Shown here one piece after another: positions 791 to 62,899 of a DNA stretch of 64,000 bases. Numbering within the stretch: position 1 is the first letter of the stretch; every line of letters starts with the position of its first letter. The DNA comes from Eledone cirrhosa (Eukaryota): the NCBI GenBank assembly GCA_964016885.1, contig OZ024743.1, forward strand, positions 31,372,001-31,436,000, given 5' to 3'. Below the pieces are notes generated by a model, which ran no database searches, was not told where the DNA came from, and saw nothing but the letters and a program-made list of their open reading frames with translations. The translations under genes and the position numbers were made by a program.

Positions 791-2619
791 ATGTTCCTAA
801 CTTTAATAATGCGTGACTTACAGGGAACGCTAGACAGCGAGAAGAGAGGGAAAGAAGCAGATATAAGCATTATATTTCCCTCTCCTTCCATAGAAGTATC
901 TATTGAGACAAACAACAACCAAACTTCGTTTGGTAAAGAAATGGATATTTACACAACAAAAGATGAAAATAACAGCCGACAAAAGACACAAAGAAAATAC
1001 AGAAAATGCAGAAATTGAAACAATTGACACAACTACACACGAAAAAACCGACAACAACAACAAAATTGAAAAAGCAACATTCGCACAGACTGTGACAAAC
1101 AAATCAGAGTACAAACACATCGACATAAGCAACTCCAAAAAAATGTTGACCGATGCAAAACAATTCATAACCTTTGAAGAAAAGGGTGGGTTTCATATAA
1201 ACTCACCCTTGGAAATTAAACGAAAAACAGTTCGAAGGACAGTAACCTTCAGAACTGTTTCAAATCAAACGAAAAAACCGGTATTCCTCAGTCAAGGGGA
1301 ACTTGAAACCACATTGAAAGAGGCTCTGCCGGACATTGATTTTATGCAGAGGACCAGACTATATGGAAGTATTTCGGTACTTTTTAAAAGCGAGCCCCTC
1401 GCACAAAAGCATTCTGTTACACCAGTCATCACAAAAACACACACTTGTTCCCTACTTACATGTGAAAAAGAACAACACATTAAAATAAATAATATACCAC
1501 CAAACATCAACATTTGCTGGATCTTAGCAGGATTCATAGAGCCAGAAAGTGATACAGTTCTTTCGGTCAGGAAGTCGACCAGACAAAGGTGGGCAGGGAC
1601 AAATTTGAAAATTCTGATACAAATGAAACCAGAAATAATTTCCAAAATACCCGAAATAGTGCTGGTCGACAACCAAAACTACATAAACGTTGTAACTGAG
1701 GGCAGAAAGTCACACTGTTTTCGATGTGCAAGCACATCACACCTAAAAGCCTCCTGCCCTTTACAAACAAATCTTTTAAAAAAAGTACTTTTACCAACAC
1801 AAGCACCAAAACAATCATCACCACCACCGCAACCACCACTGCAGCAACAACACACAAAACAAGCAAGCACACCCAAACAAACAACCACTCAACTACAAAC
1901 AACACAAAAAACACAGACAGTACCGCTGAAGAACCACAACCCCACCTCACCTCACTCAATCCAACACTACCACAAACACACACACCAAAACACCATCACC
2001 ACACAACATACCTCTGCGCCACACTCCTGATGATGATTATTCATCAATAGATGAGGCCGCTTCTCCTTCTTTAAGTGAAGAAGAGCCCCGGAAATCAAAA
2101 AAAAAAGAAAAAAAGAGACACCACAAAACCCACAAAACTCCAATCACCAACACCAACACACATCCACAGACACAAACAACAACACAAACAACACCACAGT
2201 CAAACATCCCTCTACCAGCAAAACCAACACCAACACCACCCCAAACACAAGCACCCACCATAAAAAGAGAACCCCCGGACGAACAACAAACTAAAACAAC
2301 ACAACAAAAATACAAACAACAATACGCATACATCAATACAAACAACAAGAGTTTGATGGAGGTCATCTCCCAAAACCCCAAGTTTGAGATGGAGGGCAAA
2401 ACTTTCGTCAAAGCAGGATCGTCTCCACAACTAAAACTAATAAGGGTTTCGATAGAAACCTATCAGAAATTGGAAGAACAGTTTTCGCAGGATGTTGGCA
2501 ATCCCTGTAAAAAACCTATTAACCGCGTCTTATTAAAATGTTTCCCCACCCTACCCAACACCTCCACCAGAACTGAAATGGAGATTGAACAACCCGATCT
2601 CCAGGAAACGAAAAGGTAA
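791..2619 (+). pseudogene. Frameshifted gag-like ORF1 of a non-LTR retrotransposon (L1/Tx1-like)
   Basis: ORF 903-2030 has a CCHC zinc knuckle, CFRCASTSHLKASC, followed by a P/T/Q-rich tail. Coding-like sequence continues in other frames (791-1018, 2029-2619) and is cut by the PLE at 2618. Confidence 0.65.
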
Positions 2620-2733
2620 ACACACGCACCAGCTGCTTTCACTTCAATTTATTATAATAAATTCATAAATTTAGGAATTTATAAATTTCCGATTGGTTGG
2701 TTGGTTCCACAACCAGATGATTGTTTATATATT

Positions 2734-2777
2734 GTCAAAGTTCTTTCGTCACACATTATGTGACCTCTTCAGTGACT
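2734..2777 (-). ncRNA. Minimal type I hammerhead ribozyme motif (PLE family A)
   Basis: Minus strand reads gtca-CTGAAGA-g-gtcaca-taatg-tgtgac-GAAA-gaac-TT-tgac. Confidence 0.75.
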
Positions 2778-4405
2778 GGGGATTATTTTCTTTGTTTTTG
2801 TGCCTCTCCTTCGTTCTGTCCTACGCCATCTTGTTTTTGTGTGTGTTGTGTGCTTAATTTGCGCATGTGTTACATCTGGGTGTCTGTGTGTGTTTATATT
2901 TGTTTATTTATTTGTTTATTTACATGTTACTGGTTGTTTGTTTGTTCTATGTGCGTGTCTGTTTTCATTTTGTCCTTAATTGTAAGTTGTGATGTTGCTG
3001 TTCCATTCATGTTTTCTATTTAATTTTGGTTGGAGTTCATTTATGTTTATTGCCTCTGTGATTTGTCTAAACATTGCGTCATTTCTGTGTGTAGATTCTA
3101 TTTTTATTTCTATGTTCTCTAATTTACCCTTATGTTCTATTTTAGCATGTTGGTAGAGTACAGATGATTCTTTACTATCTTGAAGGTCTCGCCAGTGTTC
3201 ATTTATCCGTTCCCCTATACTACGAGCTGTCTCACCTATGTACACTATATTCTTATCTCTACATTGTCCTTCAGTACATATTATGCCAGATACTACATTT
3301 CTAGTTTTACAGATAATATGGGGGCTTAATTTACAGATTATACATTTCTTATCTATACAGGGAGGCCTTTGAAAGGGGTATGTATTGCTAATAAGTGTTT
3401 TTATGGAGGTACCTGTTCTTTCTACTATCTTAATATTGAGTTTATTTTTATCTAGGGCCCTTCTAAATTTGTAAGCTAATTCACCTCTAGGGGTTGTATC
3501 GATGAACATTACACTCTGGTATTTATTGCTATCATACCATGAGTTTATTCTACTAACCTTATTCCTAGTTCTTTCTATTATATTCCAAAATTTGCTCCTA
3601 TACAAGGGGCAGGTCCCATTTGTGTCATTATTTACCATTTTTTTCCCATTTGGTTCTGTCTCCTCTATATACTCTGATTTTATCTCTCTGATTGTAACCA
3701 GAGAACTGCATACGGTGGATGAAGTGTTGTATGTGTCTCTCTAGTGTATTGGGGTTGCACATGCGAGACACGTTTCTCATCACCCGTACCAAATCCGCAA
3801 TCAGTATGTTGATTTTGGTATGGTCCGGTTCAAAGACCTCCCTGTATAGACAAGAAATGTATAATCTGTAAATTAAGCCCCCATATTAACTGTAAAACTA
3901 GAAATGTAGTATATAGCATAAGATGTACTGAAGGACAATGTAAAGATAAGAATATAGTGTACACAGGTGAGACAGCTCGTAGTGAACACTGGCGAGACCT
4001 TCAAGATAGTAAAGAATCATCTGTACTCTACCAACATGCTAAAATAGAGCATAAGGGTAAATTAGAGAACATAAAAATAAAAATAGGATCTACACACAGA
4101 AAAGACGCAATGTTTAGACAAATCACAGAGGTAATAAACATAAATGAACTCCAACTAAAATTAAATAGAAAATATGAATGGAACAGCAACATCACAACTT
4201 ACAATTAAGGACGAAATGAAAACACACGCACATAGAACAAACAACCAACCAGTAAGATGTAAATAAACAAATAAATAAACAAATATAAAAACACACAGAC
4301 ACCCGGATGTAACACATGCGCAAACTAAGCACACAACACACACAGACGCAAGATGGCGTAGGACAGAACAAAGGAGAGGCACAATAACAAAGAAAAGAAT
4401 CCCTA

Positions 4406-4447
4406 GTCACTGAAGAGTCACAGAATGTGTGACGAAAGAACTTTGAC
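4406..4447 (+). ncRNA. Minimal type I hammerhead ribozyme motif (PLE family A)
   Basis: gtca-CTGAAGA-gtcaca-gaatg-tgtgac-GAAA-gaac-TT-tgac: stem I gtca/tgac, 6-bp stem II, minimal stem III. Confidence 0.75.
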
Positions 4448-4678
4448 AATATATAAACAATCATCTGGTTGTGGAACCAACCAACCAATCGGAAATTTAT
4501 AAATTCCTAAATGTATAAATTTATTATAATAAATTGAAGTGAAAGCAACTGGCGCGTGTGTTTCTTATTGGCAACATGACCCTCCCAAAGTATAACAATA
4601 TCGGTTTCAACACGTTTTCAGATAGAGAATCTTGCTAAACAAATTCAGAAACGAAACATATATATATGTATATATACT

Positions 4679-4738
<60 letters not shown>

Positions 4739-4746
4739 GGAGAGAA

Positions 4747-4747
<1 letters not shown>

Positions 4748-4790
<43 letters not shown>

Positions 4791-4965
4791 CGGCCTTCCG
4801 TTGTCGTTTTATTAATATTTTACTCCGTTCTCCCTCCAAACACTGGATACCACTTCTCCAATGAATGACTTGCATAACGTATGAGTGTTTGATTGATTTG
4901 TTACATCAGGATTTGCCTGCCAGAACCAGCAGTTCCACCCTTCGGGGATCATAATAACTTAAATG

Positions 4966-4966
<1 letters not shown>
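4748..4966 (+). repeat. Right copy of the ~180 bp repeat preceded by (GATA)n
   Basis: Reverse complement of 346-604. Confidence 0.85.
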
Positions 4967-9170: not shown

Positions 9171-9685
9171 TATATACCTCCACATAGGCAATCGCTTTGA
9201 CTTCCAAACATGCACTCAGTCTCTGAACATTTCTAAAGCTGCACTTCGACGGAAATATTGCTACACGAATTAATATAGCAATGAAGTTATTAGATTAAAT
9301 ACTTTAAATGATTATTCCAGATGTGAGTGTTTCAGTTTGACCGGGCGATCTTTATGTTGTTTGCCAAAGATTTAAACTAAAAAATATGCAATATGTTTAA
9401 TAAATTTCCAATTAAAATTACTACCTGTGAAGCTAGGAATCAGATAAAGTCAAATGTCTAGATTTTATACGCACAAGTCGCTGAAGTGGACATATAGTAA
9501 TGGATATTAGTAATCCTTTTTCTGTAATTGCGTAACTCGTAGCAGAATCCTAAGGTCACCGTAGTTACATTAGAGCATTTCTTGCGCATTTTGAATACAT
9601 CTTCATGTCTGAACAGTCAATTTCCTACAGAAAAGCCAAACATACATCCGAGTACAACCGATCACATTATTAAATTCATACATAG

Positions 9686-9868
9686 GGCGGTGGATTGGCA
9701 GTACCGGTAGAGGATCAGATACCATGCTTTGACGCATACAGTTATGGCCCTTGCCAGTTCAAATACCACCGAGGTTAACTTTGCCTTTCATCCTTACGGG
9801 GTCGATAAAATAAAGTACCAGTAATGCACTGGTTAATTGCTGGCCTTGTGCCAAAAGTAGAAACAATT
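9686..9868 (+). mobile_element. tRNA-type SINE (octopus-like family)
   Basis: B-box-like gttcaaat, core gaggttaactttgcctttcatccttacggggtcgataaaataaagtaccagt and tail ggccttgtgccaaaagtagaaacaatt. There are at least six copies in the window. Confidence 0.8.
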
Positions 9869-11679: not shown

Positions 11680-12600
11680 ATCACCCCTGCGGCTAGCCAG
11701 CTCAGTGCCTATGGTGGTGAGTATGGAGGTAGCCCTAAAGCCGAGGATACCAGAAGTCTCCACTACCAAGGGTACAACCACAAACCTGTCGGAGAGCGAA
11801 CGGTATTTGAAGAGTTTGGCCTCCTCAGCCCGACGTGCCACAGAACCTGGAGCAGTCGCAGACTGCACCAAGTTGCGGCTGGAGAAAGTGTCGGTGCAAG
11901 TGGCAACACAGACGAGGGGTCTGCCACCGCTAAACGGGAAGATGGTCATGCCATCTGGCCTTTTGCCGTCCCCTCGGTCCAGCCTCACCGGCTCGAGCTG
12001 GGAAGGGAAGCTTGCAGCGTCCAAGCCATGTGTTATGACATCGTTGAGGGCAGCATGGCGTGGAAGGCGGCTGGCACTGTAGTGACAGGAAAGCGGGTGG
12101 AGGGCGAAAGTCTCCACGGTGCTGGACCGAGGGGATGGCAAAAAGCCAGATGGCATGACCATCTTCCCGTCGTTCCCTGGTGGCAAACCCCTCGTCTGGG
12201 ATGCCACTTGCACCGACACTTTCTTCAGCTGCAACCCGGTGCAGTCTGCGACTAACCCAGGTTCTGGTGCACGTCGTGCTGAGGAGGCCAAACTTTTCAA
12301 ATAACGGTCGCTCTCCGACAGGTTTGTGGTTGTACCCTTCGCAGTGGAGACTTCTGGTGTCCTCGGCTCTAGGGCTACCTTCCTACACACCACCTTAAGC
12401 GCTGAGCTGGCCAGCCGCAGGTGTGAGCCTCCTGAGCTGGAATGGCTTTTCCAGCGTGTCTCCCTTGCCGTCCTCCGGGGAAACGCCTTCTCCATTCTGT
12501 CCGCCGGGGCTGTCGAGAGGCCACCAATATGATTGACTGACTTGTCATTTGATCAGTCAGATGTTTTTAGACATTTAAATAGTTTGTTGGATTCCCTCAA
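11680..12600. mobile_element. CRE-like non-LTR retrotransposon 3' region, inverted duplication (minus 11680-12121, plus 12122-12600)
   Basis: Both arms encode a restriction-like endonuclease: H.LSC...RHAALNDVI...RGDGKRPDGMTIFPF.GG.PLVWDATCTDTF...K..KY...VETSG. The plus arm has a frameshift and a stop. Confidence 0.75.
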
Positions 12601-14465: not shown

Positions 14466-14962
14466 ACCTGGAGTTGCGACCGATAGATAGTATTAGCAAT
14501 TGGAAAAACCAAAGGAAACACTGTTTCGTCGGTCCGATTTGACGAAACTCGATCGACTATCCACATATGACACTATTCATCGTTCGTGTTATTTGTTTGT
14601 TTTAGTTTTGCTTTTGTTTTATTGTGAATAACGTTTGCTAATTTTTACATTGCATGCCAAAATTGTATTTCGATTATCATTCTTAACTACGTTTGCAGCA
14701 AAAACATTGTAAATATGGGAATCATAAGATTATTCCATTTGCCCTCACAGGTTGCATCCATTAACTAGAAACAAATCATATTAAAAGGCAACTTTCAACA
14801 TTTTTCCTCAGTCATATTACTTACCGATGGTTTGTTATGATATTAACGGTCATTCAAGAGCAGATCGTTTGGCAGACATACCCTATGTTTTAACCATTTC
14901 ATAAAATGTTGTCTACTAATTGTTCCGCAATTTGTTCGGTGGGATTCAATTCTCAACATAAT

Positions 14963-15138
14963 TGTTTCTACTTTTGGCACAAGGCCAGCAATTACCCAGT
15001 GCATTACCGGTACTTTATTTTATCGACCCCATAAGGATGAAAGGCAAAGTTAACTTCGGCGGGATTTGACTCAGAATGGCAAGGGCCGTGACTCTATGCG
15101 TCAAAGCATGGCGTCCGACCCTCTACCGGTACTGCCAA
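14963..15138 (-). mobile_element. SINE copy with 12-bp target-site duplication
   Basis: Reverse complement of the 9686 family. TSD tctcaacataat at 14951-14962 and 15139-15150. Confidence 0.85.
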
Positions 15139-16064
15139 TCTCAACATAATGTATTTTGGCCAGACATCGATTTTGAAGCATATATATCTGTTAAAAAATC
15201 GTTGAAATGTCGTGTTTTTTCTAAATCCTGTAGTTTAGTGAACATATTAAATCCTATAGTATACTAAAGATATTTGGCAGATATCAAGTGTCATTCCCAA
15301 TTCACTTGTACATTTCTCGAAATCTTTTAAGATTGTTATGTAAATATGTTTTGATAACAATATATTACTTCTTTAGCAACAGCTTGAGAATAGTATTTGA
15401 CTGGCTCACAAAAGAATCAATATACATTAGAGAAATTAATTCCTAACTTCGTCTGACAATTACTCGAAAGATTATTTATGTTGTGAATTATTCCGTTCAT
15501 TCCATATGTTAAAACACTCGTTAAAGTCTATATAAGTTTTTAAAAAAAATTAGAATGATAAAAGCTGTATGTTGTGTGATTTGCGACGTTAAAACTTAAT
15601 TAAATATTTGCCATTATATTTCTGTCAATTTAGTTCTATTCGATACGTCACACATTTTAAAAGATATTCACAATTTTCTTCTATTCTATTTCATCTGTCT
15701 TCTTCAAATATCTCTAGTAATGTGATTGTTCAGATCAACACAAAATGGTAGACAGAATAAGTATATTTTCCACAAGAGATAGGCGCCTCTTCAACATGTA
15801 TATTGTAAGCAAAGCTTTTCACATGTTGGATATATTATCTTTATAGTTGTTTAGGACTTGTACATCATATTTAAAAATGCGTCATGACATTGTTATTGAT
15901 TTTGACCTTTTAACATCATCAGCTGTAAAACTCTGAATTAGGTGCATAATACTAGGCTGGATTTTAACCAAGTATTTTATCTCTAATCTATTCCAAACTA
16001 CAATAGTACGTCTCATTGTATATAGAAATGAATATATTCCTTAATATCATTTATGAAACTTATT

Positions 16065-16100
<36 letters not shown>

Positions 16101-16160
16101 TTATTTATTTTAAAACATATTGGTGTAAACCACAAGTTGCGATATATTAGTAAAAGGAAA

Positions 16161-17629
16161 ATCAAACTCAATCCCAAAGTGTTCTTTTCATTTGCAAAAA
16201 AACACAAAATCACTGGCTCTACTGTTGGCCCTCTAATTGATGAAAATGGCACTCTTCAAGACAATGCTAAAACCATGGGTGAGATACTGCAGAAACAATA
16301 CTGCTCTGTTTTCAGGAATCCTGATATGGCCGATCTGGGCTGTATCGGCGATGTTACACCCCATTACACCTTATCGGACATAACGTTTGGCGCCCCTGAT
16401 GTCTTAGCGGCAATAAAGGAAATCAAGCATAATTCAGCAGTAGGTCCCGATAGGTTCCCTGCTTGTGTCTTGAAGGCGTGTCAACACCAACTTGCATCTC
16501 CTCTTGCCAATCTGTGGCGGAAATCACTGGATGCTGGATATGTGCCAGAAAACCTTCTATCCCAGTCTGTTGTCCCAGTTTTCAAAAAAGGAAACAAATC
16601 CCTTGCCGTGAATTACCGTCCAATCTCACTCACCTCTCATATCATTAAGGTATTTGAGAGAGTGGTGAGATCGCGAATGACCCACTTCCTTGAGAGTAAC
16701 AATATGCTGAACTCCAACCAGCATGGATTCCGTAATGGAAGGGATTGCCCGACGCAGCTACTGCATCACTTTGATGACATTTTGAGAGCATTGGGAGAGG
16801 GTTCCAACACTGATGTTATCTACCTTGATTTCAGCAAGGCTTTTGACAGGGTTGATCATAACATTCTACTGAGAAAGCTGTCCAATATTGGTGTCACTGG
16901 AAAGCTGCTGCAGTGGATCAAGAGCTTCCTGTCAAACAGAACCCAACATGTTGTAGTTGAAGGAGTCAAATTCAGCCCAGCCAAAGTCAGTAGTGGGGTC
17001 CCACAAGGCACTGTGTTGGGCCCACTTCTCTTCATCATCTATATTAATGACATCACTGACATCATCAAACACAGCAACATTAACATTTTCGCTGATGATT
17101 CCAAGCTCCAAAAGGTCATCAATGGCGTGGATGACCGGATAAGCATTCAGTCAGACCTACTGGCTGTTACCCAATGGGCGGAAAAGAACAACATGTTACT
17201 GAACGAAGACAAATTCGAACTGATCCACTTTGGAAAAGAGGATGCTCTGAAACTCCCGTACTCCCTTCCCTCCGGGGAAACTCTCGTGGCATCTAACAAC
17301 ATCAGAGACTTGGGAGTAACCGTGGACAGCAACATAAGCTGGGCCACGCATATAAGCAGCAAAGTTGACATGGCCCGCAGAAAGTGTTCCTGGATCCTCA
17401 GAACCTTCCAGTCGAGAGATTCCCACACCATTATCCTTCTCTTCTCTACTTGTGCCCGACCACACCTTGAATACTGTTGTCCACTGTGGTCTCCGCAAAC
17501 AGTAATTCTCTTCTCGAATGGGCCATGGTGCCCAAATCCTGAATTGAAAGACTTCGCCAGGTGGTGCTATTAAGTTAGACATTGCCTGGGCCAATACTGG
17601 CCAAAACATTTCAAAGTTATTCAAAGTTA
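16161..17629 (+). mobile_element. CR1/L2-group LINE family 1, 5'-truncated, with internal deletion
   Basis: RT motifs NYRPISLTS, NQHGFR, YLDFSKAFDRV, GVPQGTVLGPLLF, FADD, PHLEYC. Tail (ttcaaagtta)2 then (TA)n. It lacks 433 bp relative to the 20170 copy. Confidence 0.92.
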
Positions 17630-18564: not shown

Positions 18565-19121
18565 TAAATAGAAAATATGAGTGGAACAGCAACATCACAA
18601 CTTACAATTAAGGACAAAATGAAAACACGCACACACATAGAACAAACAACTTACAATTGAAAACACACACAAAATGAAAACACACACAAGACAAAATGAA
18701 AACACACACACACACATAGAACAAACAACCAACCAACAATAAATAAATAAATAAACAAACAAATAGAAAAATATAAATAGAAAAATAGAAAAATGAACAC
18801 AAACACACACAGACACCCGGATGTGGCGCATGCGCAAACTGAGCACGCAACCCACACACAAACAAAATGACGTAGGATAGAAGAAAGGAAAGGCACAGAA
18901 ACGAAGAAAGAAATCCCCAGTCACTAAAGAGGTCACAGAGTGTGTGACGAAAGAACTATGACTATATATATATAAACAACTATCTGGTTGTGGAACCAAC
19001 CAACCAACCAGAAATTTATAAATTTGTAAATTTATATATATATAATAAATTAAATTGAAGTGAAAGCAATTGGTGCGTGTGTTTCTTATTGGCAACATGA
19101 CCCTCCCAAAGTATAACAATA
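18559..19121 (+). mobile_element. PLE family A 3' arm without tail
   Basis: Starts at [16 protein letters not shown]. Hammerhead variant at 18919-18963 (agtca-CTAAAGA...GAAAgaacTA-tgact). Ends at cccaaagtataacaata|(TA)n. Confidence 0.9.
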
Positions 19122-23330: not shown

Positions 23331-23427
23331 CGAAGGAAATGTGGTAAGGAGCCAGGTGGACCATAACGCACCAAAGTACTCAATACTTGAAGTAGTAGAG
23401 TGGGTAATAGGAACCAGTAAGACCCCA

Positions 23428-24187: not shown

Positions 24188-24487
24188 ACATATATATGTA
24201 TATATGTATATATATATATATATATATATAGTTTTGCGAGGTTTTTTATATGAAATCGTGTGTCGAAACAGATATTGTTATACTTGGGGAGGGTCATATT
24301 TGCGTAGTATTGCCAGAATTAATAACAGAACACACTCACTGTTTGGTTGGTTTTCGCTTCTCGCTGTCTTTTATTATATCTGCGATCTAACTTACTCGGT
24401 CCTCAATGTTGCCATTGACTGACCGGCGGTCAAAAAAATACAGATACAATATAGACACAAACACATATATATATATTTTACATAATT

Positions 24488-24530
24488 TAGATAAATCTTT
24501 CGTTGCACATCTGCAACATCGTCAGTGGTG
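24488..24530 (-). ncRNA. Hammerhead ribozyme motif (PLE family B)
   Basis: Minus strand CTGACGA-t-gttgca-gatg-tgcaac-GAAA-gatt-TA; stem I is weak. Confidence 0.6.
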
Positions 24531-26477
24531 TTATATTCATTGTTCCTCCTGTTGTGTTGTATGTCTACGCCATTTTTTATTCAGTCTGTCCATATATTAT
24601 TTATTTATTTGCTTGTTTGTTTATCTTATTTTATTTTGTCTTCTTTGCGCATGCGTTTGCGTGTGTGTATAGTGTTATGTGTGATGTGTGACTAGTGTGT
24701 ATAGTGTTGTGTCTGCTGGGTGACTAGTGTGTGTTTATGTGCTTGTTGTTATTGTGCTTGTGTATGTATTTATTTATCTTATTTTATTTAATTTTATTTA
24801 CTTATTTATACTTCTCTTAGGTCAGTGTTGTTTGTTTGGGTGTTGTTGTTGTTCCACTCATTCTTTCTGTTTAGCATTGGTCTTCTAATTTCTATTTCAC
24901 TGGCCTCTCTGATTTGCCTATCTGCTGGGTCATTCCTATGTTTAGATATTATTCTAATTTCTATGTTGTCTATGTTACCGTCATGTTGTTGTCTAGCATG
25001 TTCGTATAGTACTGACCCGTTTTATCGTCATTTTAGTTCCCCCCAGTGTTGGTCTATCCTTTCACCTATGCTACGAGCTGTCTCACCTATGTATGTTGTT
25101 GTCATGTTTCTGCAAGTACCCTCTGTACATCTTATGCTATAGACTACGTTTCTAGTTTTACAATTTATCCGGGGTTTCACCTTACATATGATACACTTCC
25201 TATTGGTATAGTGGGTTTTCTTAAAAGGGTAGGTTTTGCTGATCAGGGATTTTATGGCGGTTGCTGGCTTTTCTACCACCTTTATTGTTAAGTGGGTCTT
25301 TCTCAGGGCCTTTCTACACTGGTTAGCTAATTTCCCTCCAGGGGTGGCGTCCACAAACATGACACTCTGATATCTCTGGTTGTCGTACCATGATGTGGCC
25401 TTCCCTATCTTATGTCTAGCCCTATCTAAGCTATTCCATGATTTGCTCCTGTATAGTGGGCAGATTCCTTTCATGTCCAGTTCTATGAGGGTCTTATACT
25501 TTTCCATGGCTCCTTCGTATACTCTGACTCTGTCTCTTTGGTTGTAGCCAGAGAACTGCATGCGGTTGATGAAGTGTTGGATGTGTCCTTCCATTTCTGT
25601 TGGGTCGCACATGCTGGACACATTCTTCATCACTCGTACCAAATCTGCGATCAGAATATTAAACTTAGCACTACTGGACATTGCTGAGTTTTTGAGTATC
25701 AGGTATTTGGAGGCCATGGGTTTAGCATAGTGTGAGTGGAGAATTTGGGCTCTCTCGTCTATAGTGTTAATCCAGAGTTATGTGTCTAATACAGGTAGTC
25801 TATTGTTAGGGTGTTTGGAAGGGAAGTCTATAGTTACAGTTATACTCTGGTGTATGGAATTAGCTATCTGCTGGATGCTTTCCATCGTGCTACGTTCTAA
25901 ATCAAACTTGTTAGTGCTCTCTAGTGGGGATGTTCTTATAACTATATTGATATCATCTACATAACGAGAGTACATGATGAGGTCTATGGAGCTTTCATTA
26001 AGGAGATCTTTAAGTCTCCTTTCCCACCATACCATGAAAAGGTTGGCAACATCACCAGCTATGCTGACGCCGATGGCTGCTCCCTCATTTTGGGTGTAGA
26101 TTTTCTCATTGAACTTAAATATGTGGCCCTTTAGGGTAGTTTTGATACTAGCCCCTATTGCATGTGCGACCATTTTTCTTACCTGATCAGTGTTTTGGGG
26201 GGTCTGTATGGCTTTGGTCCACCCAATCCACCTTCCTATGGGAGTCTTTTTAGCCATTGAGGTTATGGTGGGGGGTCTACCTCTTATAGGTCTACTAGGG
26301 CAGAAACATCTAAGGTCATGGCTGTCTAGGTAGTCAGTGTCGTAGGTAAGTCTAAGTAGGAGGCCCAGTTCGTCTGTGTCGACGTCGCAGAACTCCACCT
26401 CACTCTCAATGATCATCTCCACACATCTTTTCACAGCAAAATTTTTGCTGTGAAAAGATGTGAAAAGATGAATATAA

Positions 26478-26520
26478 CACCACTGACGATGTTGCAGATG
26501 TGCAACGAAAGATTTATGTA
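26478..26520 (+). ncRNA. Hammerhead ribozyme motif (PLE family B, inverted arm)
   Basis: CTGACGA 26483-26489, stem II gttgca/tgcaac, GAAA 26507-26510; stem I is weak. Confidence 0.6.
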
Positions 26521-26737
26521 AATTATGTAAACTATATATATATATATGTGTTTGTGTCTATATTGTATCTGTATTATTTTTGACCGCCGGTCAGTCAATG
26601 GCAACATTGAGGACCGTGTAAGTTAGATCGCAGATATAATAAAAGACAGCGAGAAGCGAAAACCAACCAAACAGTGAGTGTGTTCTGTTATTAATTCTGG
26701 CAATATTACGCAAATCTGACCCTCCCCAAGTATAACA

Positions 26738-26771
<34 letters not shown>

Positions 26772-44179: not shown

Positions 44180-44290
44180 CAATTGTTTCTACTTTTGCCA
44201 CAATGTCAGCAAATACATCAGTGTATTACTGGTACTTTATTTTATCGACCTCGTCAAGATGAAAGGCAAAGTTAACCTCGCCGAGATTTA
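44180..44290 (-). mobile_element. SINE fragment (9686 family)
   Basis: actggtactttattttatcgacc...gatgaaaggcaaagttaacctcg. Confidence 0.75.
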
Positions 44291-48400: not shown

Positions 48401-49957
48401 TGTGACTCTAAAAGCACAACATCCGTTCATTTTACAATACGCGACACTTATGTTAATAAAAGTAAGTTGAATTGGAATTATTCACATAGAATTTAATAGA
48501 ATAATATTGTAACTGTGTGTTCCTTTCTTGCCGTACGTCATTTGACAAGGTTTATGGGTAAATGAATTAACTCTGTTCTATTAAAAATGTTCTTTCGATT
48601 CTACTGTTGCGAATTCATGGTCCATCACAGACATATTCAAGCTGTGTCGATATTATCTTTTCAGAAATATAGTATCTGAGTATATTTATAAGTGGCTCCC
48701 ACGTTAACGTAATTCAGGTCTCATATAGTGGTGGGGGATTTAAAATGAAATATGATGAATGGGAGTACGATGTCAGTATTTCATAATCATTTAAAACTAC
48801 CAACGGCCTAAGTGTTTGTCTCTCGTAACCATCCCCAATGGTGTGTGATACTCAAATATATACCTTAATATCAGGGAACCTTAAATTAATAACTATAAAT
48901 GCAGTCTTGATTAGGTATGCATTAACAGACTACGATTTCTCTGGTAGTAAAACTACTTTCCTTCGGGAGTTGTTTTAACCTGATATGTATTAATCAATAC
49001 TAACTAATCAATAACATCTCCCAGATATAAATATATAGTTCCAGGTGGCTAAATAATGAATTGAAATGTTACATTTTACGCATTTATTGAAAGCAACATT
49101 TCTACGGAAACGTCCTTCAGGTAGTATAAATAGGTCAACGAATTAGTCGATGAATATAGACCATTTTATGTCAAGCCATTAAAATATCGATTCTACATTA
49201 AACGAAACTGTTTTAGGCGATGAGGAAGTATATAAATGGGCGTCATTATAATATTGGTGACTTTTCTCCCAATGCTAGTGAATTGAATGATAACATTTTA
49301 ACACACAAATAGCAAGGATAGTATGAATTTCATTTGATGATTAAATCAATAAATATATATTTTACACTCGTGAATGATAACCGATGAACCAAGAGTATAC
49401 GTATACTGTAGAACGCTATCTACAAAACGTTGGTCGAGTCTAACATACTGAATCTAGTGATATATTCCTGATCTCAATAGAATAATTTCTTCATGACACA
49501 AGCGGTATTTATAAATCTATAGATATCGCTAGAATTATTGGTTTATCTGCCAACGTCAAGATTTTGTTTTAAGCCTCATCAACGACAATGAAACTAACCT
49601 CTCTAGTTTTGTGTGTAGGAAATTAACCTGGTGTCTTTTTGCATGTTAACTTATTCCCGAGATCGCTATAAATACACAGCATTTGGGTCAAATCTTGGCC
49701 TATTAGTTGCGCAATGATAGACTGGATCTGCACAGGCACCCGTCGTTTAGGTATATACGTATGTGTGTGCTATTTTGAGGTATTTCTGTTGTTCTACGAA
49801 TAATTCAATGAGATTATTAAGAACATGGAAATATGGTTTCTATGTCTGAAGGATATTTTAGGAATTGCTACATATAAGAGTTCGTCTATACATATATATG
49901 CATGTAATTTCACATCCTCTTGTAGGGTGGACACGTGCAATCAATACATCATTATTA

Positions 49958-50090
49958 ACGTCCCTTTACGGATTGAGTTCAAATCCCGTCGAGGTTAACT
50001 TTGCCTTTCATCCTTACGGGGTCGATAAAATAAAGTACCAGTAATGTACTGGTGAATTGTTGGCCTTGTGCCAAAAGTAGAAACAATTAT
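49958..50090 (+). mobile_element. SINE copy, 5'-truncated
   Basis: gagttcaaatccc, then core and tail nearly identical to 9771-9868. Confidence 0.85.
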
Positions 50091-52239
50091 TATTTGTGTG
50101 TGCATATCTCTTCAGGTATAACACTGTCATGCTAGGGATTATATGCATATTTTCCTTGTAGAAATACCCAATTACATTCCACTCTATCAGGCATGTTTAT
50201 ACCTACATACATACATATTAAATGCATAGATATGTAGGTAATCTATTTATGCAAGCATGCTTGTATGGTTAAACAGATGGATGTTTATATACAAGTGTAG
50301 TTGGGTGATAATGAACATGTGTACTCTGGTAAATCCTGTTGCATACATGGCCGGATAACCGGCTACCAATTATCCCGCTTAAGAGAGAGAGTCATATATG
50401 GACGCACTGTTGGTTTGACAACAGTATCCAGAAAGATGGGTACAAGCCAGCGTCGTCTCAATTGTATTCACATGGACATTTAATAAGTATAAGTATTCTT
50501 ACTTTAAACTAGTGGAGTTGGTTCTCTCTGAACATGTTTCTTCGTTTCTACTTATGGGTTTTAATATTTAGAGATTTGAATTCATGTTGCATATGAATTT
50601 GTTGTTATATCATTTGGTGCGTGGCTGTGCTTTCGTATTATATTTCATCATGTGGGTTAGAGTTCAGCCTTCTTGCAAGTACATCTTTATTACGAACGTA
50701 TGTATTGTTATTATTATATCCCCGCATCTCTACATTCTTGGAACACGAAAGCTCAGTTGTTGATGCTCTGGTAGCTCATTGACAAACTTACACTCATTGG
50801 TATATGTGAGCGGTGGCACGTATACCAACTGATGTGATGAGATCGGGAAGACTACAAATCAGGGGAGTACTCTATGCATGGGAAAAACAGTGTGTAAAGA
50901 GGAAGCTACATCCCAACCGCTATGTCAAAAGGTTTCTACATATATTCGGCAAGCCGAAGGTGTACTCATAAGGTTGTTGTTGTTGTTCATGTTGTTGTTT
51001 ATGTTGTGATCTGAAAATTGATGACTCTACAAACAGTTGAAACAATTATTTTAACTGAAAACCTAGGTCACATATGTTGAATTAAAAGTTTGAGCCCGGT
51101 GCCCCATCATGGACATGGCTCAATTACCCAAGCGATAAAAGCTGATACTGAGTGTGCGCGTGCGTGCGTATGTGTTCGTGCGTGTGCACATACGCGTGAT
51201 TAAATAGTTAAAGAAGTGATGGAGACATATAGTAAATCCGATTTATTAATTTCAATATGACAGTCTTCAGTGCGAAATCGATAGAATATTCCATGTAATT
51301 ATCAGGATACAAGGCCAGAAGATAAGGCGCATAATATTTAGATTCTTGCTATGCAGTATTATATTGGAATAGCAATTTATCTGGGATATAGTGGAATATG
51401 TTGTAATAATTTATAGTCATAGTTGATGAAGATAATAATTTTAACCAGCGGAATTCAATACAAGTGACAAAGCACGAATGTTTATTTCTCTGACATTTTG
51501 TGTAAAATATTGCTTCACTTGAAATCAGCCATTGGCAAATGTTGCTCATAGTCATTCTAGCTTAATCAACTTAAGTAATATAATACAGAGCAGCTTGTGC
51601 TGTAGGCATATATTTTATTCGAACTTACTTTAGTATTTAGATATCTTAATCCTAGTGATTTAACGTCTAGGTATATATGGGAAATGCATTTTATTACGTT
51701 TTGTATGATAATCATGTTTCTCCGAAATATTTAAGTATTTAAGTAAACGATTTCGAAACAGAAGTAAAAACGCATTTAGAATAGATGTTAATAACCATAC
51801 ACTAAAGGGGTAAATATTTTTCTTTAGATGCGTTTCCACAATGTAGTTATTTCTCTTAGAATCACGTTCAGCGTTCAGCTTAATGTCCGCGCGAGTAATG
51901 TAATTTCAGACTTTTCAGATATGTGTCTGGTTTGAATTACAAGGAGACCCACAACTATAAATAATCATTTCATGACATATATGTCTTACACATTGAATAT
52001 TTCGTTCGATTCTTGACAGAATACAGTTCACTACTGATGCATATCTTTCTATAGAATAGAGTATTCCAGCTGCTCTCGCACAACAAATTGAGATGTTTAG
52101 GTCTATGTTCATATATTAAACATACATTTATTTGTCGATCTCCGTATATTTATTTTATATTTGCCTCATTCGTTCATTTACGAATATATGTTATATAATA
52201 AATTATCTCCACCCCTTTCTCTCCCTCGTCATATCTCAC

Positions 52240-52269: not shown

Positions 52270-52270
<1 letters not shown>

Positions 52271-52456
52271 AACAAGTATGACCCAGACGGCAGAGCTCAA
52301 GCCGTTTCGACGGCTAATTTGAGAATTAGCCGTCGAAACGGCCTGAGTTCTGCTTCGGAGTGAGTCATACTTGTTCCTATTACCCACTCTACTAACCTAA
52401 GTATTGAGTACTTTGGTGCGTTATAGTCCATCTGGTTCCTTGCCACATTTCCTTCG

Positions 52457-52459
<3 letters not shown>
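52270..52459. mobile_element. Hairpin mini-element with one-sided tail in (TA)n
   Basis: Inverted arms 52270-52319 and 52324-52376 (19-bp perfect core, 13-bp perfect outer ends) and tail 52377-52459. Confidence 0.75.
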
Positions 52460-55885: not shown

Positions 55886-56106
55886 TGAGGGTGATGTATT
55901 GGCAGTATCTGTAGAGCGTCAGACACCATGCCTTGTAGCATATAGCTATGGCCCTTTATGTTCCGAGTTCAAATCCCACTGAGGTTAGCTTTGCCTTTCA
56001 TCCTTACGGGGTCGATAGAATAAAGCACCAATAATGCACTAGAGTGGATTTAATAGACTTTTCCCTCCACTTCAAATTGCTGGCCTTGTGTCTAAAGTAG
56101 AAACGA
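55886..56106 (+). mobile_element. Full-length SINE copy with TSD
   Basis: Same core. TSD ttattattactg(t/c)aa at 55871-55885 and 56107-56121. Confidence 0.85.
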
Positions 56107-57214
56107 TTATTATTACTGCAACGTTACTCAAGGGTAATATATTCAGGATTCACCTGTGATGAACGATATTAAACACCTTCAAGTAATCAACCAAGTTCCA
56201 ACCGCAGACCTTCCTTCCTCCTGCAAGAATCTTCGGATATTTAAATTTTCGTGATTTGCGTCAATGTGTGCCGTTGCAACAAACACATTTAGGAATCGGT
56301 AAAACCAGACCCAAGCAGCAAATGTATTATATCTCAATATTAACATTCAGTAAACACGTTTCTCTGTTAGAGATATATTTCAACACCATCATGCAATTTA
56401 TATTAGAAATGTTGTTTCGCCAATATTTCAAACTCAGGGCGTATTTATTGCAACCAGAAAAATACGCCGTGTTCATTATTTTCCGAGTCAAGCAAGATGA
56501 GCGGGTTAAAAAACAATTATTAAACTCGAAAATGGCATTGTAACATGCATCAATCAGCTCAACATATCAAACAATATATGCATATTATAGAATGAAGAAA
56601 TTTTGAAGAAATTAGCCCCCAAGATTCGAAATTGTTTGGTAAAATCAAACATTTGCATATTTGGTATTCTTCTACTTTGGTTTTGTCAGTTACTGTCAAG
56701 AGCGCTGCTACGAGGGTAAAATATTTAACTAGATTATTCGTGCATCTAAATTACCTGACTTCAGTCAAATATTTATGTCTCGGGAGGAGTTTCTAATGCA
56801 ACTCAATTTCTTTTACACGTGTATTAAATCAAGAATATTCCATTTAAAATAGTATATATATATATTCTTCCAGGAATCCCTATCAGCAATATTTCTTTAT
56901 CCATGCTTATGCACCGTTGTAATTTTTTTATGTTCGATTCTATTTCAATGTATTTTAAAAGCATTATAAATCAATAACTGATTCACTGCATCTGCAGTAA
57001 ATGTCATTTGGGGTTAAGATAATTGCTCATAATCTACATGTTGGAAATCCTATTTTGTTTCATTCTTCTTTGATGCTCTCAATGTAAGAATAATAAAATA
57101 GTAATTTTTTACCTTTATCTTATGACATCCGTTTCGCGATAATTCTCTGAAACACTTTACATTTTTCCTTTATTATTTCTTCGGGCATATACAGTCAGAT
57201 AATTATTTGTTGTT

Positions 57215-57613
57215 GTTGTGATACTGTATTGGCAGAATCAGGAAAACGTCGAGCAAAATGCTTTTCACCATTTGATCCGACCCTGGATTCAAATCTCGTC
57301 GAGATCAACTTTATTTTAAAGAACTGCGGAGGATGAAAAGCAAAGTTGTGTACTGAGGATGAGTCACTATAGTCGACATTTTCCTTCTCTTAAAATTGTA
57401 GGCGTACTGCACAGATTAGAGATCATTATTGTCACAAATTGGCAGTATCGGCAGAGGGTCGGACGCCATACTTTCCAATCATAGTTACGTCCCTTTACGG
57501 TCTGAGTTCAAATCCCGTCAAGGTTAACTTGCCGTTCATCCTTACCGTGTCGATAAAATAAAGTACCAGTAATGAACTGAGTAATTTCTGGCTTTGTGCC
57601 AAACGTAGACACA
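57215..57613 (+). mobile_element. Two tandem SINE copies (old 57215-57430, younger 57436-57613)
   Basis: Two heads, ttggcagaatc and ttggcagtatc. TSD attatt(g/a)tcac at 57425-57435 and 57614-57624. Confidence 0.75.
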
Positions 57614-58079
57614 ATTATTATCACCGACGAGTTGTATATTACGCCTGTAAGATTAGAAGAAAAAATATCGTTTTTCCTTGAATAGTTTTATTCTTTTTGA
57701 AGGTTTCTGACTATCGTATAAAGAGGCTGATCCGTTAATATTTCTTGAGTATTTCTCTATTGAATTTCAAATTAATGTTTTCCTTCAATATCAATGATGA
57801 TACTTGACAAAAATGTTAAACGTTTATGTAGCGGATTGTAAAGAAGTCGGGGGGGAGGGTAAAGGCTTTACCCGAGGAGAAACCCTATGTGAGGAATACC
57901 GAGCGATGATATATCAAATGTCGGTGACATTAAATGTTGTAAGGATAAGCAGCATTAATATTAGTGCCACGTCTAAACCTCTTATGGGTACTACAATTGG
58001 CATCTCATCAGACAATAGATCATGATTAGGTAACTATTTACTACGCCAAAATTCAACGAACAAGATCATCAATAAAGCG

Positions 58080-59005: not shown

Positions 59006-59057
<52 letters not shown>

Positions 59058-59804: not shown

Positions 59805-60578
59805 GAGATGAGAGTAAAAAGTGGAGAGGGAGGAGTATAATGAGGAAGGAGGAGATAGGAGGAGAGATGGGTGATAGAGAGAGGTAGCTTTTATAACTGA
59901 GAAAGATATATTGTTTTACATAGAGAGGTTGAAAACCGTTGGAAGATAATGTAAAAATTAAAAGACTTTGAAAATTAACGAAGAGAAAAATAATGTAAAG
60001 TTAAGGTTTGTATATTGAGGGGTTTGATAATATGTGCGATGAAAAAGAAAATGTTAATATCTATTGAGAATAATAATATTTAAGGTTTAATAATATGTGC
60101 GATGTTAAGAAAATGTTGATATGTATTATTAAAAGGAATAAAACAGGTTATTTAAGTAAGGAGATATTGAGATGAGCATGAATGAGTTAGATGAAAGGGA
60201 GAAAAAGAATAATGAATTGAGGATGAATAATCTAACGTCAAAAAAATGTGTATATGTTTACGAAGGATTTTTACAAGGTAATATAGAGTAAGAGTGTATT
60301 GTATTATGTAATAATTGATACTATGTTAGGCAAGAGTGAGAAAAGGTACAGATTAGGGGTTAGACATTAAAAGAAGAAGAGAAGAAAGGGAAGTGATAAA
60401 TAGAATGAGTAACAAGTATTATAGAATGTATAATTATAGAAGTATTATAGAATGTATAATTATAGAATGTATAATAACCTTTGAAATAAGGTAGAAAGAT
60501 GGGTATATTTTTAAAAGAAGTGTATATATATATATGTGCCTTTGAGAAAAAGATTCTAAATTGATAAAGAATTGAATC

Positions 60579-62075
60579 TTAGCTGTATACTTTGTGAAAT
60601 GTTTTATGGAATGTATGCAAGCAGATAGAAAACAAGTCAGTGCGTCTATTTATTATAGAATCTAAATTAGAAATAATGGTAAATTTTTCATTTAGACAGA
60701 GATTGCAAATTTTGGATAGAGAAGTGTTCAAGTTTGAATACGCAAAAGAAACCTTCTTCCAAAAGATGCTATATTTAAAATTTTTGTCTTTCAAGGACCA
60801 TATGAGTTCTGAGAGAGCCGTGTTGGTTCTTTTAAGTTTGTATTTAAAAGACGAATGATGGTTATAAAGACGAGCTTTAAAAGAGGTGGAAGTGGAGCCA
60901 AAATAGGTGAAGGAATTGGTGTCAGTTATAACTTTACATTCGTAAATTAAGTTTTTATCAAGACAATGGTTGTTGAGAGGATATTTATTTTTAATAGGGC
61001 AATTGCAATTGCGATTAGAGAGATTATTAATGAGTGACCTACTGTTATCTATAGAAGGAATTGGATTGGAGAAGTTATTTGCGATAGGAATAATAGTTTC
61101 TTGATTTAGAATGGGATTAAGAACATTTAGCGAAGTTGTGTTTGACGTTGTATTTGGGTTTGTAGAAATTAGCCTAGGGTTTACAATGACGTCGGGAGTA
61201 CTATTATTATGATATTCAGTGTTGGAAGGAAGAGATTTAGTATTTAGTATTTTATTGTTGTGTTTAGAGATAATGTTGGAGGATGTAGAATAGGAAAATG
61301 TTATAGTGTGTTTGTTAAATATTTTACTATAGATATGTGAGGGAGGGAAGCATTTATTTAAGGCACTAAAGAATAATTTAGGAATATTGTTATTAATAGA
61401 GATGGAGAAAGGAGCATTATACCAGATTATGTTTTTGTATCTAGGTCTTTTATTAAAGTTATTGGAATGATCATGATTAATTATTCTACTGTAATTTCTT
61501 CTAGAATTTGTTTCTTTACTATATTTGATTTTATCAGGATAGCCGGCTTTAGAAAGCGCGTTTTTGTAGTAATTGGCGTTAGCATCAATGATGTTTTTAT
61601 TAGAAGATAGGTTAGATATTCTTTTTCCAATATTACTAACTATAGCATTCTTGATATTAGTAGGATGGTTAGATTTAAAGTTAACATAATTTAGGTTCTC
61701 ATTGTTTTTATGGTAAGGGAAATATAGGCCAGTGTCAAGATTAAGAGATACATCCAAGAAATTAGCTAGTTTGATGCTGTTATCAAATTCAATTTTTAGG
61801 TTATGTTGGTTAAAGAGATTACGTATATTGTTCTTAAAAATATTAAGGTTAACTATGTTGCAATTTAAGATAGTAAAGAGTCCATCGTCACGATAAATTC
61901 CACCGCGAAGTTGAGGAATTTTCCGACCCAAAGAGTTCAAAATAAAGATACCAATTAAATCTGTCAATTGCGATGAATCGGATGCTCCCATTGTGATGTC
62001 GAAGTTGTTAAAGGTATCGGCTCTGGTCAAATATTCGTTGTTGAACTCTAGGATGGTTTTATGTGCGGTATACAT
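60579..62075 (-). CDS. PLE RT plus GIY-YIG endonuclease, N-terminally truncated, uninterrupted
   Basis: FDITMGASD, GIYRDDGL, NFLDV, SNHP, IWYNAPFS, CNC...PL...C, LIY...YFGST...FKARLYNH, CNLCLNEK. Confidence 0.85.
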   Translation of the reverse strand: MYTAHKTILEFNNEYLTRADTFNNFDITMGASDSSQLTDLIGIFILNSLGRKIPQLRGGIYRDDGLFTILNCNIVNLNIFKNNIRNLFNQHNLKIEFDNSIKLANFLDVSLNLDTGLYFPYHKNNENLNYVNFKSNHPTNIKNAIVSNIGKRISNLSSNKNIIDANANYYKNALSKAGYPDKIKYSKETNSRRNYSRIINHDHSNNFNKRPRYKNIIWYNAPFSISINNNIPKLFFSALNKCFPPSHIYSKIFNKHTITFSYSTSSNIISKHNNKILNTKSLPSNTEYHNNSTPDVIVNPRLISTNPNTTSNTTSLNVLNPILNQETIIPIANNFSNPIPSIDNSRSLINNLSNRNCNCPIKNKYPLNNHCLDKNLIYECKVITDTNSFTYFGSTSTSFKARLYNHHSSFKYKLKRTNTALSELIWSLKDKNFKYSIFWKKVSFAYSNLNTSLSKICNLCLNEKFTIISNLDSIINRRTDLFSICLHTFHKTFHKVYS

Positions 62076-62530
62076 ATCAACATTTTCTTAACATCGCATA
62101 TTATTAAACCTTAAATATTATTATTCTCAATACATATTAACATTTTCTTTTTCATCGCACATATTATCAAACCCCTCAATATACAAACCTTAACTTTACA
62201 TTATTTTTCTCTTCGTTAATTTTCAAATTCTTTTAATTAATACATAATCTTCCAACGGTTTTCAACCTCTCTATGTAAAACAATATATCTTTCTCAGTTA
62301 TAAAAGCTATATCTCTCTCTCTATTACCCATCTCTCCTCCTATCTCCTCCTTCCTCATTATACTCCTCCCTCTCCACTTTTTACTCTCATCTCCTCCTCT
62401 TTTTCATCCCCCCCCTCTAATTAAAATATTTTTCCCAATAACACACATCAATCTAAAACTACTTTTTATATGTTGATTTAAAACTGAAATATCCACAGGT
62501 GTTTTTTAACCTTCATGTCATGTCTTCCTG

Positions 62531-62597
62531 TTTTATCTGATGAAAACACAAATATTATTGCATGATGATATTTGTTTTTGAAATGCGGATAATAAAA
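62531..62597 (+). ncRNA. Type I hammerhead ribozyme motif
   Basis: ttttat-CTGATGA-stem II (acaaatattat/atgatatttgt)-GAAA-tgcgga-TA-ataaaa; 6-bp stem I. Confidence 0.72.
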
Positions 62598-62899
62598 TAC
62601 ATGAACTCTTTTCACCATCTTTTGTTCTTATATATAACATATATAATATATATATGTATGTATATATTTACATATGTATGTTCTTCTGGTTTTATAATTT
62701 CACAAATGTTTCCCAATAGAGAGAGATTCTGTTACTAAAATAGTTACAAGACATTCTCATTGGAATTTACACAACATCAACTAGGTAGATTATGTATGCA
62801 TGTCTGCATGTGTAGATATGGATGTTATTGTATGTGTCGATGCGGATGTTTTGAGTTGTATGTGTGCATGTGTATATCCTTTGTATCTGTACATGTGTA

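What the first reader, a model, noticed from the sequence alone, without database searches (positions are those of the whole stretch)
2618..62630. One architecture in several unrelated PLE-type families: inverted arms, one-sided tail, hammerhead, (TA)n target
Seen: inverted arms at 2618-4656, 24231-26740, 35541-35644, 38817-39663, 41292-41839, 52270-52459 and 59805-62630. Where both ends are visible, one arm stops flush against (TA)n and the other continues into an extra terminal tail. Hammerhead-type motifs of at least five different sequences occur, at 2734/4406/18919/38982, 24488/26478, 34288, 41632 and 62531, with weaker ones at 36778 and 52309. Known: PLEs have pseudo-LTRs, tails, inverted 5' repeats and hammerheads, and some target microsatellites. 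Inference: both strands of the self-complementary (TA)n target prime reverse transcription, one at the RNA 3' end and one at a fixed internal site, so the products range from kb-scale down to 100-bp hairpins.
Basis: partly seen in the sequence, partly recalled or inferred. Interest (0 to 1): 0.72.

Follow-up and report, generated by a model that had tools for sequence, protein, structure and literature searches.

The report
Two-armed Penelope insertions, one RNA
These inverted repeats are copies of known Penelope-type jumping genes sitting in TA repeats, and almost every back-to-back pair has exactly one short and one long end with both halves from the same source copy, which likely means both cut DNA ends start copying one RNA at two fixed internal sites.

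Summary
Real, and mostly known. The window holds five Penelope-like element (PLE) families (two Neptune-type, three Hydra-type by motifs) inserted head-to-head into (TA)n. Inverted copy, one-sided tail, hammerhead and (TA)n targeting are published (PMC8557442), as are two internal RT start sites (PMC11167929). Added here: 124 of 126 joined pairs have one short (S) and one tailed (T) end. Either arm can be longer, and some T arms are 13-30-nt stubs that share nothing with the S arm, which rules out fold-back. The two arms share source-copy variants (49 of 51). In two families both arms stop together at an initiator-like TCATT or both pass it (0 of 37 and 2 of 32 mixed). Best reading: both ends of a break prime on one RNA at two fixed sites.

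The parts
2618..3827 (-). Family A (Neptune-type) arm, S-1251 to S-38, EN-coding fragment; outer end missing, abuts a LINE-like ORF
   Evidence: (GIY-YIG E 0.0015, below cut-off)
3829..4656 (+). Family A tailed (T) arm with hammerhead (core 4410) and tail of about 55-60 nt, then (TA)n
18566..19117 (+). Family A one-armed S copy inside a (TA)n array
23335..23426 (-). Family E one-armed T stub in (TA)n
24231..26442 (-). Family B (Neptune-type) T arm: RT-EN fragment, 3' UTR, hammerhead-like motif, 43-nt tail
26413..26471 (.). Short palindrome at the head-to-head junction of the family B insertion
26468..26737 (+). Family B S arm (core CUGACGA at 26483; stem I only 2 bp), ends flush in (TA)n
31709..34475 (+). 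Family F PLE fragment (RT, CX4CxxC linker, GIY-YIG), one-armed here; decayed hammerhead-like motif near 34288
35544..35606 (-). Family A S arm of a minimal insertion
35632..35644 (+). 13-nt T stub (last bases of the A tail); shares no sequence with the S arm
38817..39573 (-). Family A S arm with internal duplication
39575..39663 (+). Family A T arm (S-36 plus tail)
40270..40307 (+). Family D solo T stub in the (TA)n array
41292..41630 (-). Family D (Hydra-type) T arm, 137-nt tail; 5' end at the inferred start TCA(+1)TT
41628..41839 (+). Family D S arm with hammerhead (core 41642, 10-bp stem I, 115-nt stem II, palindromic stem III)
52270..52319 (-). Family E (Hydra-type) S arm
52322..52459 (+). 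Family E T arm, 80-nt tail
59805..62069 (-). Family C (Hydra-type) long arm with 502-aa RT-EN fragment; outer end hidden in the N gap
62070..62630 (+). Family C S arm with hammerhead (core 62537); the family tail of about 92 nt is absent from this end

Best explanation
These are head-to-head insertions of Penelope-like retrotransposons in (TA)n arrays with one short and one tailed end, likely made when the element's enzyme cuts both strands of the array and both free DNA ends start copying one RNA at two fixed internal sites. Shown: family identity, (TA)n flanks, one S plus one T end, either arm longer, shared source variants, joint stopping of both arms in D and E. Inferred: the GIY-YIG domain nicks both strands. 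One 3'-OH pairs with 2-4 nt of AU/UA at site S, the other at site T, 43-137 nt further 3'; this interval is the tail. Two RT active sites (a predicted dimer) copy the same RNA, the T-primed copy displacing the S-primed one. Each copy stops independently, or both run off the RNA's 5' end. The two cDNA 3' ends are then joined by end-joining with 1-3 nt of overlap or short templated inserts. If the protein binds the 5' pLTR of a transcript that starts at TCA(+1)TT, the product is a 190-550-bp hairpin. If it binds a downstream pLTR of a read-through transcript, the arms are kilobases long, up to several tandem units. Hammerhead cleavage does not set the usual ends.
For: S+T rule: A 37 of 38 joined pairs with two terminal ends (41 minus/plus neighbours examined; 2 were internal read-through, 1 was two pieces separated by a TA array), B 15 of 15, C 7 of 7, D 29 of 30 (32 examined, 2 outer ends not fetched), E 36 of 36 (38 rows). 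Independent choice of ends would give about half. Orientation: among neighbours within 6 kb, 41 head-to-head, 5 tail-to-tail, 5 tandem. Either arm reaches further, by kilobases. T stubs that share nothing with the S arm occur at window 35632, L057 and L085. Same source: in B, 49 of 51 family polymorphisms agree between arms, 22 insertion-private variants are shared by all segments, and the partner is the nearest arm in 12 of 15. In A, within-insertion distance is below the between-insertion median in 26 of 36 and above it in 4. The one T+T pair has two different tail variants. Coupled 5' ends: in D, 12 short pairs have 22 of 24 arms at S-202 to S-207, mode at the A of TCATT, and 18 of 20 long pairs have both arms past it (Fisher p 7e-7). 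In E, 58 of 58 arms of 29 short pairs stop at or 3' of the A of TCATT and both arms of 8 long pairs pass it (p 3e-8). 8 of 9 start sites end in at least 3 alternating A/T bases, against 3-12% background. In vitro precedent: PAc nicks and extends both strands from two internal starts that bound the tail, and is predicted to be a dimer (PMC11167929).
Against: All evidence is from one assembly; nothing was assayed. Shared variants prove one source locus, not one molecule, and gene conversion or assembly polishing could add to them. 24 private variants in B are not shared by all segments, and B1, B12 and B14 have several arm differences. The transcription start is inferred from a motif and arm ends only. 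In family A the 5' ends of the two arms are not tightly coupled. 4 of 18 resolved A insertions have one arm only. Two D long pairs have one arm ending inside the Inr boundary. Start-site microhomology is partly inflated because ends were called by extension into TA, and PAc initiates without homology to the cut DNA. Junction overlaps are short and only modestly above chance (43% have at least 1 nt by chance). Tails of A, B and E show no significant fold (z -0.4 to +0.6; D -1.8). One-RNA copying needs strand displacement, which is untested.
Confidence: 0.62

Rival explanations
1. Both ends prime at fixed sites, but on two RNA molecules from the same source locus, held by an asymmetric dimer (or only one source locus is active per cell).
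For: Haplotype sharing cannot separate molecules of one locus. No strand displacement is needed. Some B insertions show several arm differences.
Against: A full-length RNA has S/T sites in both pLTRs, so independent RNAs should often give one short and one long arm; seen in 0 of 37 (E) and 2 of 32 (D). It also needs an extra rule to force S on one RNA and T on the other.
Confidence: 0.2
2. Both cDNAs start at T (or further 3'), and the endonuclease later trims one arm at the AT-rich S site while resolving the intermediate, the idea suggested for the tail in PMC8557442.
For: It also yields one S and one T. S ends in ATAT/TAT, like the target. PAc endonuclease cuts AT-rich sequence in its own pLTR junction.
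Against: PAc RT was seen to start at both tail boundaries in vitro. T+T pairs, the expected untrimmed class, are 1 of 126. T sites also pick TA/AT bases within a 15-nt zone (B: +43 to +58), as expected for pairing.
Confidence: 0.1
3. One arm is made by fold-back or self-priming on the first cDNA or on an antisense template (proposed in PMC3846280 for junction palindromes).
For: Explains identical haplotypes. Short palindromes and snap-back inserts occur at some junctions (window 26413-26471), and 7 of 15 B junctions carry inserts or mismatches.
Against: A fold-back arm cannot hold sequence absent from its partner. Yet either arm can extend kilobases beyond the other, and T stubs of 13-30 nt share nothing with their S arm.
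Confidence: 0.05
4. Independent insertions pile up in the same (TA)n tract, or the palindromes are assembly artefacts.
For: Arrays do collect many elements; nested and adjacent copies are common.
Against: No TA at the joined junctions, strong head-to-head bias (41 vs 5 vs 5), S+T rule, shared private variants, and junctions that differ copy to copy. A TA-targeting LINE in the same window lies tail-to-tail with TA between copies.
Confidence: 0.03

Closest known systems
Canonical C-terminal EN+ PLE insertion (Craig et al. 2021, PMC8557442, passages and section 11 read; Arkhipova et al. 2013, PMC3846280, passages and Discussion read)
   Same: Partial tandems, adjacent inverted 5'-truncated copy, tail at one end only, hammerhead in the pLTR, microsatellite bias, Asn-rich ORF inserts.
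   Different: Tails are 43-137 nt (some D copies 226) instead of 30-40. The two-armed form is the majority (14 of 18 resolved A insertions). Those papers give no S+T counts in the passages read and ascribe tail and inversion to EN resolution or antisense self-priming.
Poseidon PAc of Anolis carolinensis (Frangieh et al. 2024, PMC11167929, parts 1-2 of 4 read; supplementary figures not visible)
   Same: Both strands nicked and extended, two internal RT starts bounding the tail, hammerhead cleavage not needed, predicted dimer, start sites inside the ORF 5' end (as in A and B).
   Different: Other clades. Here the start sites carry 2-4 nt matching the (TA)n primer, whereas PAc showed no homology. 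The read text reports no strand difference in start sites and does not address pairing of S with T or the inverted copy.
Hydra clade PLEs (PMC8557442 section 11)
   Same: C, D, E: DKT, RW(K/R), CxCX5C linker (one Cys changed in the window copy of C), (TA)n targets, hammerheads in C and D.
   Different: D is 6.9 kb with a 4-kb 3' UTR (Hydra described as under 3 kb) and a 115-nt hammerhead stem II. E lacks a canonical core.
Neptune/Nematis-type PLEs (PMC8557442 passages)
   Same: A, B, F: CX2-5CxxC linker before GIY-YIG, DKSG in B, microsatellite targeting.
   Different: Neptune versus Nematis not resolved; no named reference sequences were available for the tree.
L1 twin priming (recalled, not read here)
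   Same: Both target strands prime on one RNA and the cDNAs are end-joined.
   Different: In L1 the second primer lands at a variable upstream site and gives a non-overlapping 5' inversion; here both sites are fixed and close, so the same sequence is copied twice.

Membership tests
EN+ Penelope-like elements | Single ORF with PLE-type RT and C-terminal GIY-YIG endonuclease | tested here: met
   Intact ORFs in B (about 1,200 aa), D (824-aa frame) and E (786-aa frame) with YxDD and Y(I/F)GxT motifs. Pfam hits on window fragments are weak (GIY-YIG E 0.0015, RVT_1 E 0.0005, below cut-off).
EN+ Penelope-like elements | Tandem or partial-tandem units forming pLTRs, with adjacent inverted copy | tested here: met
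   Units of 4,124 (B), 6,907 (D) and 3,118 bp (E); head-to-head composites.
EN+ Penelope-like elements | Tail at one end only | tested here: met
   124 of 126 joined pairs; lengths exceed the published 30-40 bp.
EN+ Penelope-like elements | Minimal type I hammerhead in the pLTR | tested here: inconclusive
   Pattern met in A, C, D; partial in B; no canonical core in E or F; no Rfam hammerhead hit. Cleavage not testable.
EN+ Penelope-like elements | RT groups with named PLE references and telomerase | not testable with these tools
   No named PLE references held. The tree has only in-genome families and unnamed database relatives.
Hydra clade (C, D, E) | DKT, RWK-like motif, CxCX5C linker | tested here: met
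   D and E carry SDKTGN, R(V/L)RWR and CxCX5C; C (N-terminus missing, one Cys changed) groups with them at 100/100.
Hydra clade (C, D, E) | Absence of the CCHH motif in EN | tested here: inconclusive
   Judged by eye from translations, no profile test.
Hydra clade (C, D, E) | Short element (<3 kb) with canonical hammerhead | tested here: not met
   D is 6.9 kb; E (3.1 kb) has no CUGANGA. A general description in the paper, not its diagnostic motif set.
Neptune/Nematis (A, B, F) | CX2-5CxxC linker before GIY-YIG | tested here: met
   [27 protein letters not shown].
Neptune/Nematis (A, B, F) | Placement in Neptune rather than Nematis by RT phylogeny | not testable with these tools
   No labelled references; F is a long, unsure branch.
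DNA-transposon MITE (considered for the D and E hairpins) | Terminal inverted repeats at both ends and a fixed interior | tested here: not met
   One end has an unpaired 80-137-nt tail, junctions differ per copy, and both are pLTR pieces of RT-coding elements.

The most novel reading that the evidence does not exclude
PLEs integrate by default through one asymmetric RT-endonuclease dimer on a single RNA. Its two active sites start at S and T on opposite ends of a double-strand break, so the tail is the spacing between the two sites, the inverted copy is the second cDNA, and tens of thousands of MITE-like hairpins are run-off products that record the element's transcription start to the base.
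Probability: 0.5. Interest if true: 0.72.

Novelty: new member of a known kind. Interest (0 to 1): 0.5.

Why it matters
How PLEs make their inverted copies and one-sided tails is named as an open question in PMC8557442, and the in vitro study explains the tail but not the inversion. The genome counts here exclude fold-back as the general route and tie both features to one two-ended priming event, which gives a sharp bench test. Family B has many intact, near-identical ORFs to test it with. The result also warns that abundant TA-flanked hairpins (29,594 exact motif hits for E) may be mis-filed as DNA-transposon MITEs. The elements themselves are ordinary members of known clades.

Tried and rejected
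Rfam: no hammerhead family listed; TA arrays give spurious miRNA matches. Hammerhead cleavage as the usual 5' end: rejected for D (predicted cut at S-63, arms end at S-202 to S-207). Tail as RNA 3' end: rejected. Conserved fold of the tail in A/B: not found. Monomeric RNA circle as template: not required; in B5 both outer units share a variant that the inner unit lacks, which fits a linear tandem RNA, but this is one case. De novo TA addition by the RT instead of a pre-existing array: interruptions on the two flanks have the same strand polarity in 8 of 10 informative loci, a weak sign for pre-existing arrays; an empty-allele check gave no result, so the TSD is unknown. RNA support: no RNA holder listed. 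Dimer prediction for the N-terminal 246 aa of B: no verdict. Supplement text search of PMC11167929 found none of four terms, and its figures S1-S2 could not be seen and may bear on S/T pairing. Literature searches listed no paper on coupled S+T ends or twin priming in PLEs; the library lacks most subscription journals and Repbase reports. Also read: bioRxiv 10.64898/2026.07.22.740005 (part 1 of 5), PMC13282606 and PMC2377424 (passages; the latter shows an internal Inr/DPE promoter in Drosophila Penelope).
Full report
Setting. The window is G000:C4:31372001-31436000 of a 3.0-Gb, TA-rich animal assembly. The closest named relative of family B's protein is an Octopus vulgaris protein at 70% identity, so the host is likely a cephalopod (inference).

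Observation. After masking (TA)n, self-BLAST recovers inverted arms at six of the seven sites. The seventh, 35541-35644, is an S arm plus a 13-nt stub of tail and is not self-complementary. I call the end that stops flush at (TA)n 'S' and the end with the extra tail 'T'. All five sites with both ends visible are S+T. The 2618 site has lost its left end, and the 59805 site ends in an N gap. My motif scan finds a full minimal hammerhead in A, C and D, a 2-bp stem I in B, and no canonical core at 34288, 36778 or 52309. In E the 52309 motif is the 3' half of a degenerate fold whose 5' half lies upstream of the inferred start. Rfam lists no hammerhead.

Identity. The seven sites belong to five families: A (three sites), B, C, D and E. 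A sixth PLE, F, lies at 31709-34475. B is young: the 150 scored protein hits are 99-100% identical, many with open frames of about 1,216 aa; its unit is 4,124 bp. A, B and F have a CX2-5CxxC linker (Neptune/Nematis type). D and E have DKT, RWR and CxCX5C, and form one clade with C at 100/100, matching the Hydra description. D's unit is 6,907 bp, E's 3,118 bp. No labelled references were available, so clade names rest on motifs.

End rule. The A end motif has 27,851 exact matches: 13,079 S and 11,663 T. In the first 39.6 Mb of contig C1, 183 listed ends gave 41 head-to-head neighbours within 6 kb, against 5 tail-to-tail and 5 tandem. All 41 were fetched. 37 are S+T (two of them look like one duplicated locus), two are T plus an internal read-through, one is a true T+T, and one is two S pieces separated by a TA array. 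B: 15 of 15 composites, chosen as minus/plus neighbours from the list of 150 protein hits. C: 7 of 7 among the 30 best loci. D: all 32 minus/plus neighbours among the first 100 of 3,363 hits; 29 of 30 with both ends seen, one S+S. E: 36 of 36 classifiable pairs from the first 30 loci plus 20 chosen regions of 29,594 hits. Pooled: 124 of 126. Tails are about 60 (A), 43-58 (B), about 92 (C), 137 or 226 (D) and 80 nt (E). Of 20 distinct insertions in the first 30 A-motif hits, 14 are two-armed, 4 one-armed and 2 unresolved. Ends abut (TA)n in 28 of 29 and 26 of 26 cases versus 14% background.

Both sites are internal. In tandem copies the tail continues into the next unit. In A and B it encodes the start of the ORF; in D and E it lies in the leader. 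Eight of nine start sites end in at least three alternating A/T bases, suggesting that the nicked (TA)n pairs with the RNA; this count is partly inflated by how ends are called.

Not fold-back. Either arm can reach kilobases further than the other, and T stubs of 13-30 nt share no sequence with their S arm. Junctions show 1-3 nt of overlap in 8 of 15 B and 24 of 35 D cases, the rest blunt, mismatched or with short inserts. This looks like end-joining; chance alone gives at least 1 nt in 43%.

One source, probably one RNA. In B, arms agree at 49 of 51 family polymorphisms and share 22 insertion-private variants, while 24 private variants are not shared. The partner is the nearest arm in 12 of 15. 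The single T+T pair has two different tail variants. In D, 22 of 24 arms of the 12 short pairs end at S-202 to S-207, most often at the A of TCATT, 8 nt before the hammerhead core and far from the predicted cut at S-63. None of 20 long pairs has an arm ending there, and 18 have both arms past it. In E, all 58 arms of 29 short pairs stop at or 3' of the A of TCATT; both arms of 8 long pairs pass it, read from the printed flanks. TCATT resembles an initiator (recalled consensus; Drosophila Penelope has an internal Inr promoter). Joint stopping is what one RNA site would give; two RNAs from one locus cannot be excluded. Family A shows no such tight coupling.

Mechanism. Shown: family identity, targets, S+T rule, arm independence in length, shared source, joint stopping. 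Inferred: double nicking, pairing-guided starts, a dimer on one RNA, strand displacement, end-joining, and the transcription start. Confidence 0.62; rivals are two RNAs (0.2), endonuclease trimming (0.1), fold-back (0.05) and coincidence or artefact (0.03).

Known and new. Inverted copy, one-sided tail, hammerhead and (TA)n targeting are in PMC8557442 and PMC3846280; two starts and both-strand extension in PMC11167929. Six searches listed no paper with the S+T coupling or the single-template evidence; the library is incomplete. Earlier notes of this scan report the same pattern in this genome and in others. They are unchecked and not used as support; my start-site reading was noted before that look-up. 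One lead from them, twin RCTC...GAGY hairpins after each end, is present 4-6 nt after both S and T in D and E, without a covariation test.

Verdict. New members of known PLE clades with a known architecture; the counts sharpen an open mechanistic question. Interest 0.5.

Noticed in passing
window 16157-17623 (+), 19700-19829, 20176-22664 and 34941-35514 (-): A young LINE-type family (RVT_1 E 2e-31 and 4e-32; copies 98.6% alike) also ends flush in (TA)n, but its copies lie tail-to-tail with TA between them.
   Followed up: partly
L132:2880-6506 (family B ORF); L086 (family A): Long Asn-rich insert of about 170 aa in the N-terminal part of an open ORF, like the N-rich inserts of Adineta Penelopes but upstream of the RT.
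   Followed up: no
window 41632-41785: Family D hammerhead has a 10-bp stem I and palindromic stem III but a 115-nt stem II with a C-A mismatch at its base; the inferred transcript starts inside the 5' strand of stem I.
   Followed up: partly
window 347-582 and 4730-4959: Another inverted pair (89% alike), each arm with (ATCT)n and an outer TA flank, encloses the LINE-like ORF and the first A insertion; family not identified.
   Followed up: no
window 894-2619: LINE ORF1-like frames with a CCHC knuckle; no Pfam hit.
   Followed up: no
window 11681-12426: GC-rich inverted pair of 306 nt (88.6%) not flanked by (TA)n; not examined.
   Followed up: no
window 9684-9868, 14958-15140, 44181-44289, 49948-50094, 55888-56114, 57438-57621: A dispersed repeat of about 180 nt in six copies, SINE-like; not examined.
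   Followed up: no
L085:1087-1135: A minimal insertion of about 47 nt: 32-nt S arm plus 16-nt T stub between TA tracts.
   Followed up: yes
L038/L039, L047, L050/L051: Several small A hairpins join at an internal palindrome about 83-109 nt upstream of S, which would let two cDNAs anneal and may explain junction palindromes without antisense templates.
   Followed up: partly
window 36709-36955: TA-flanked island with a degenerate hammerhead-like motif; family not identified.
   Followed up: no
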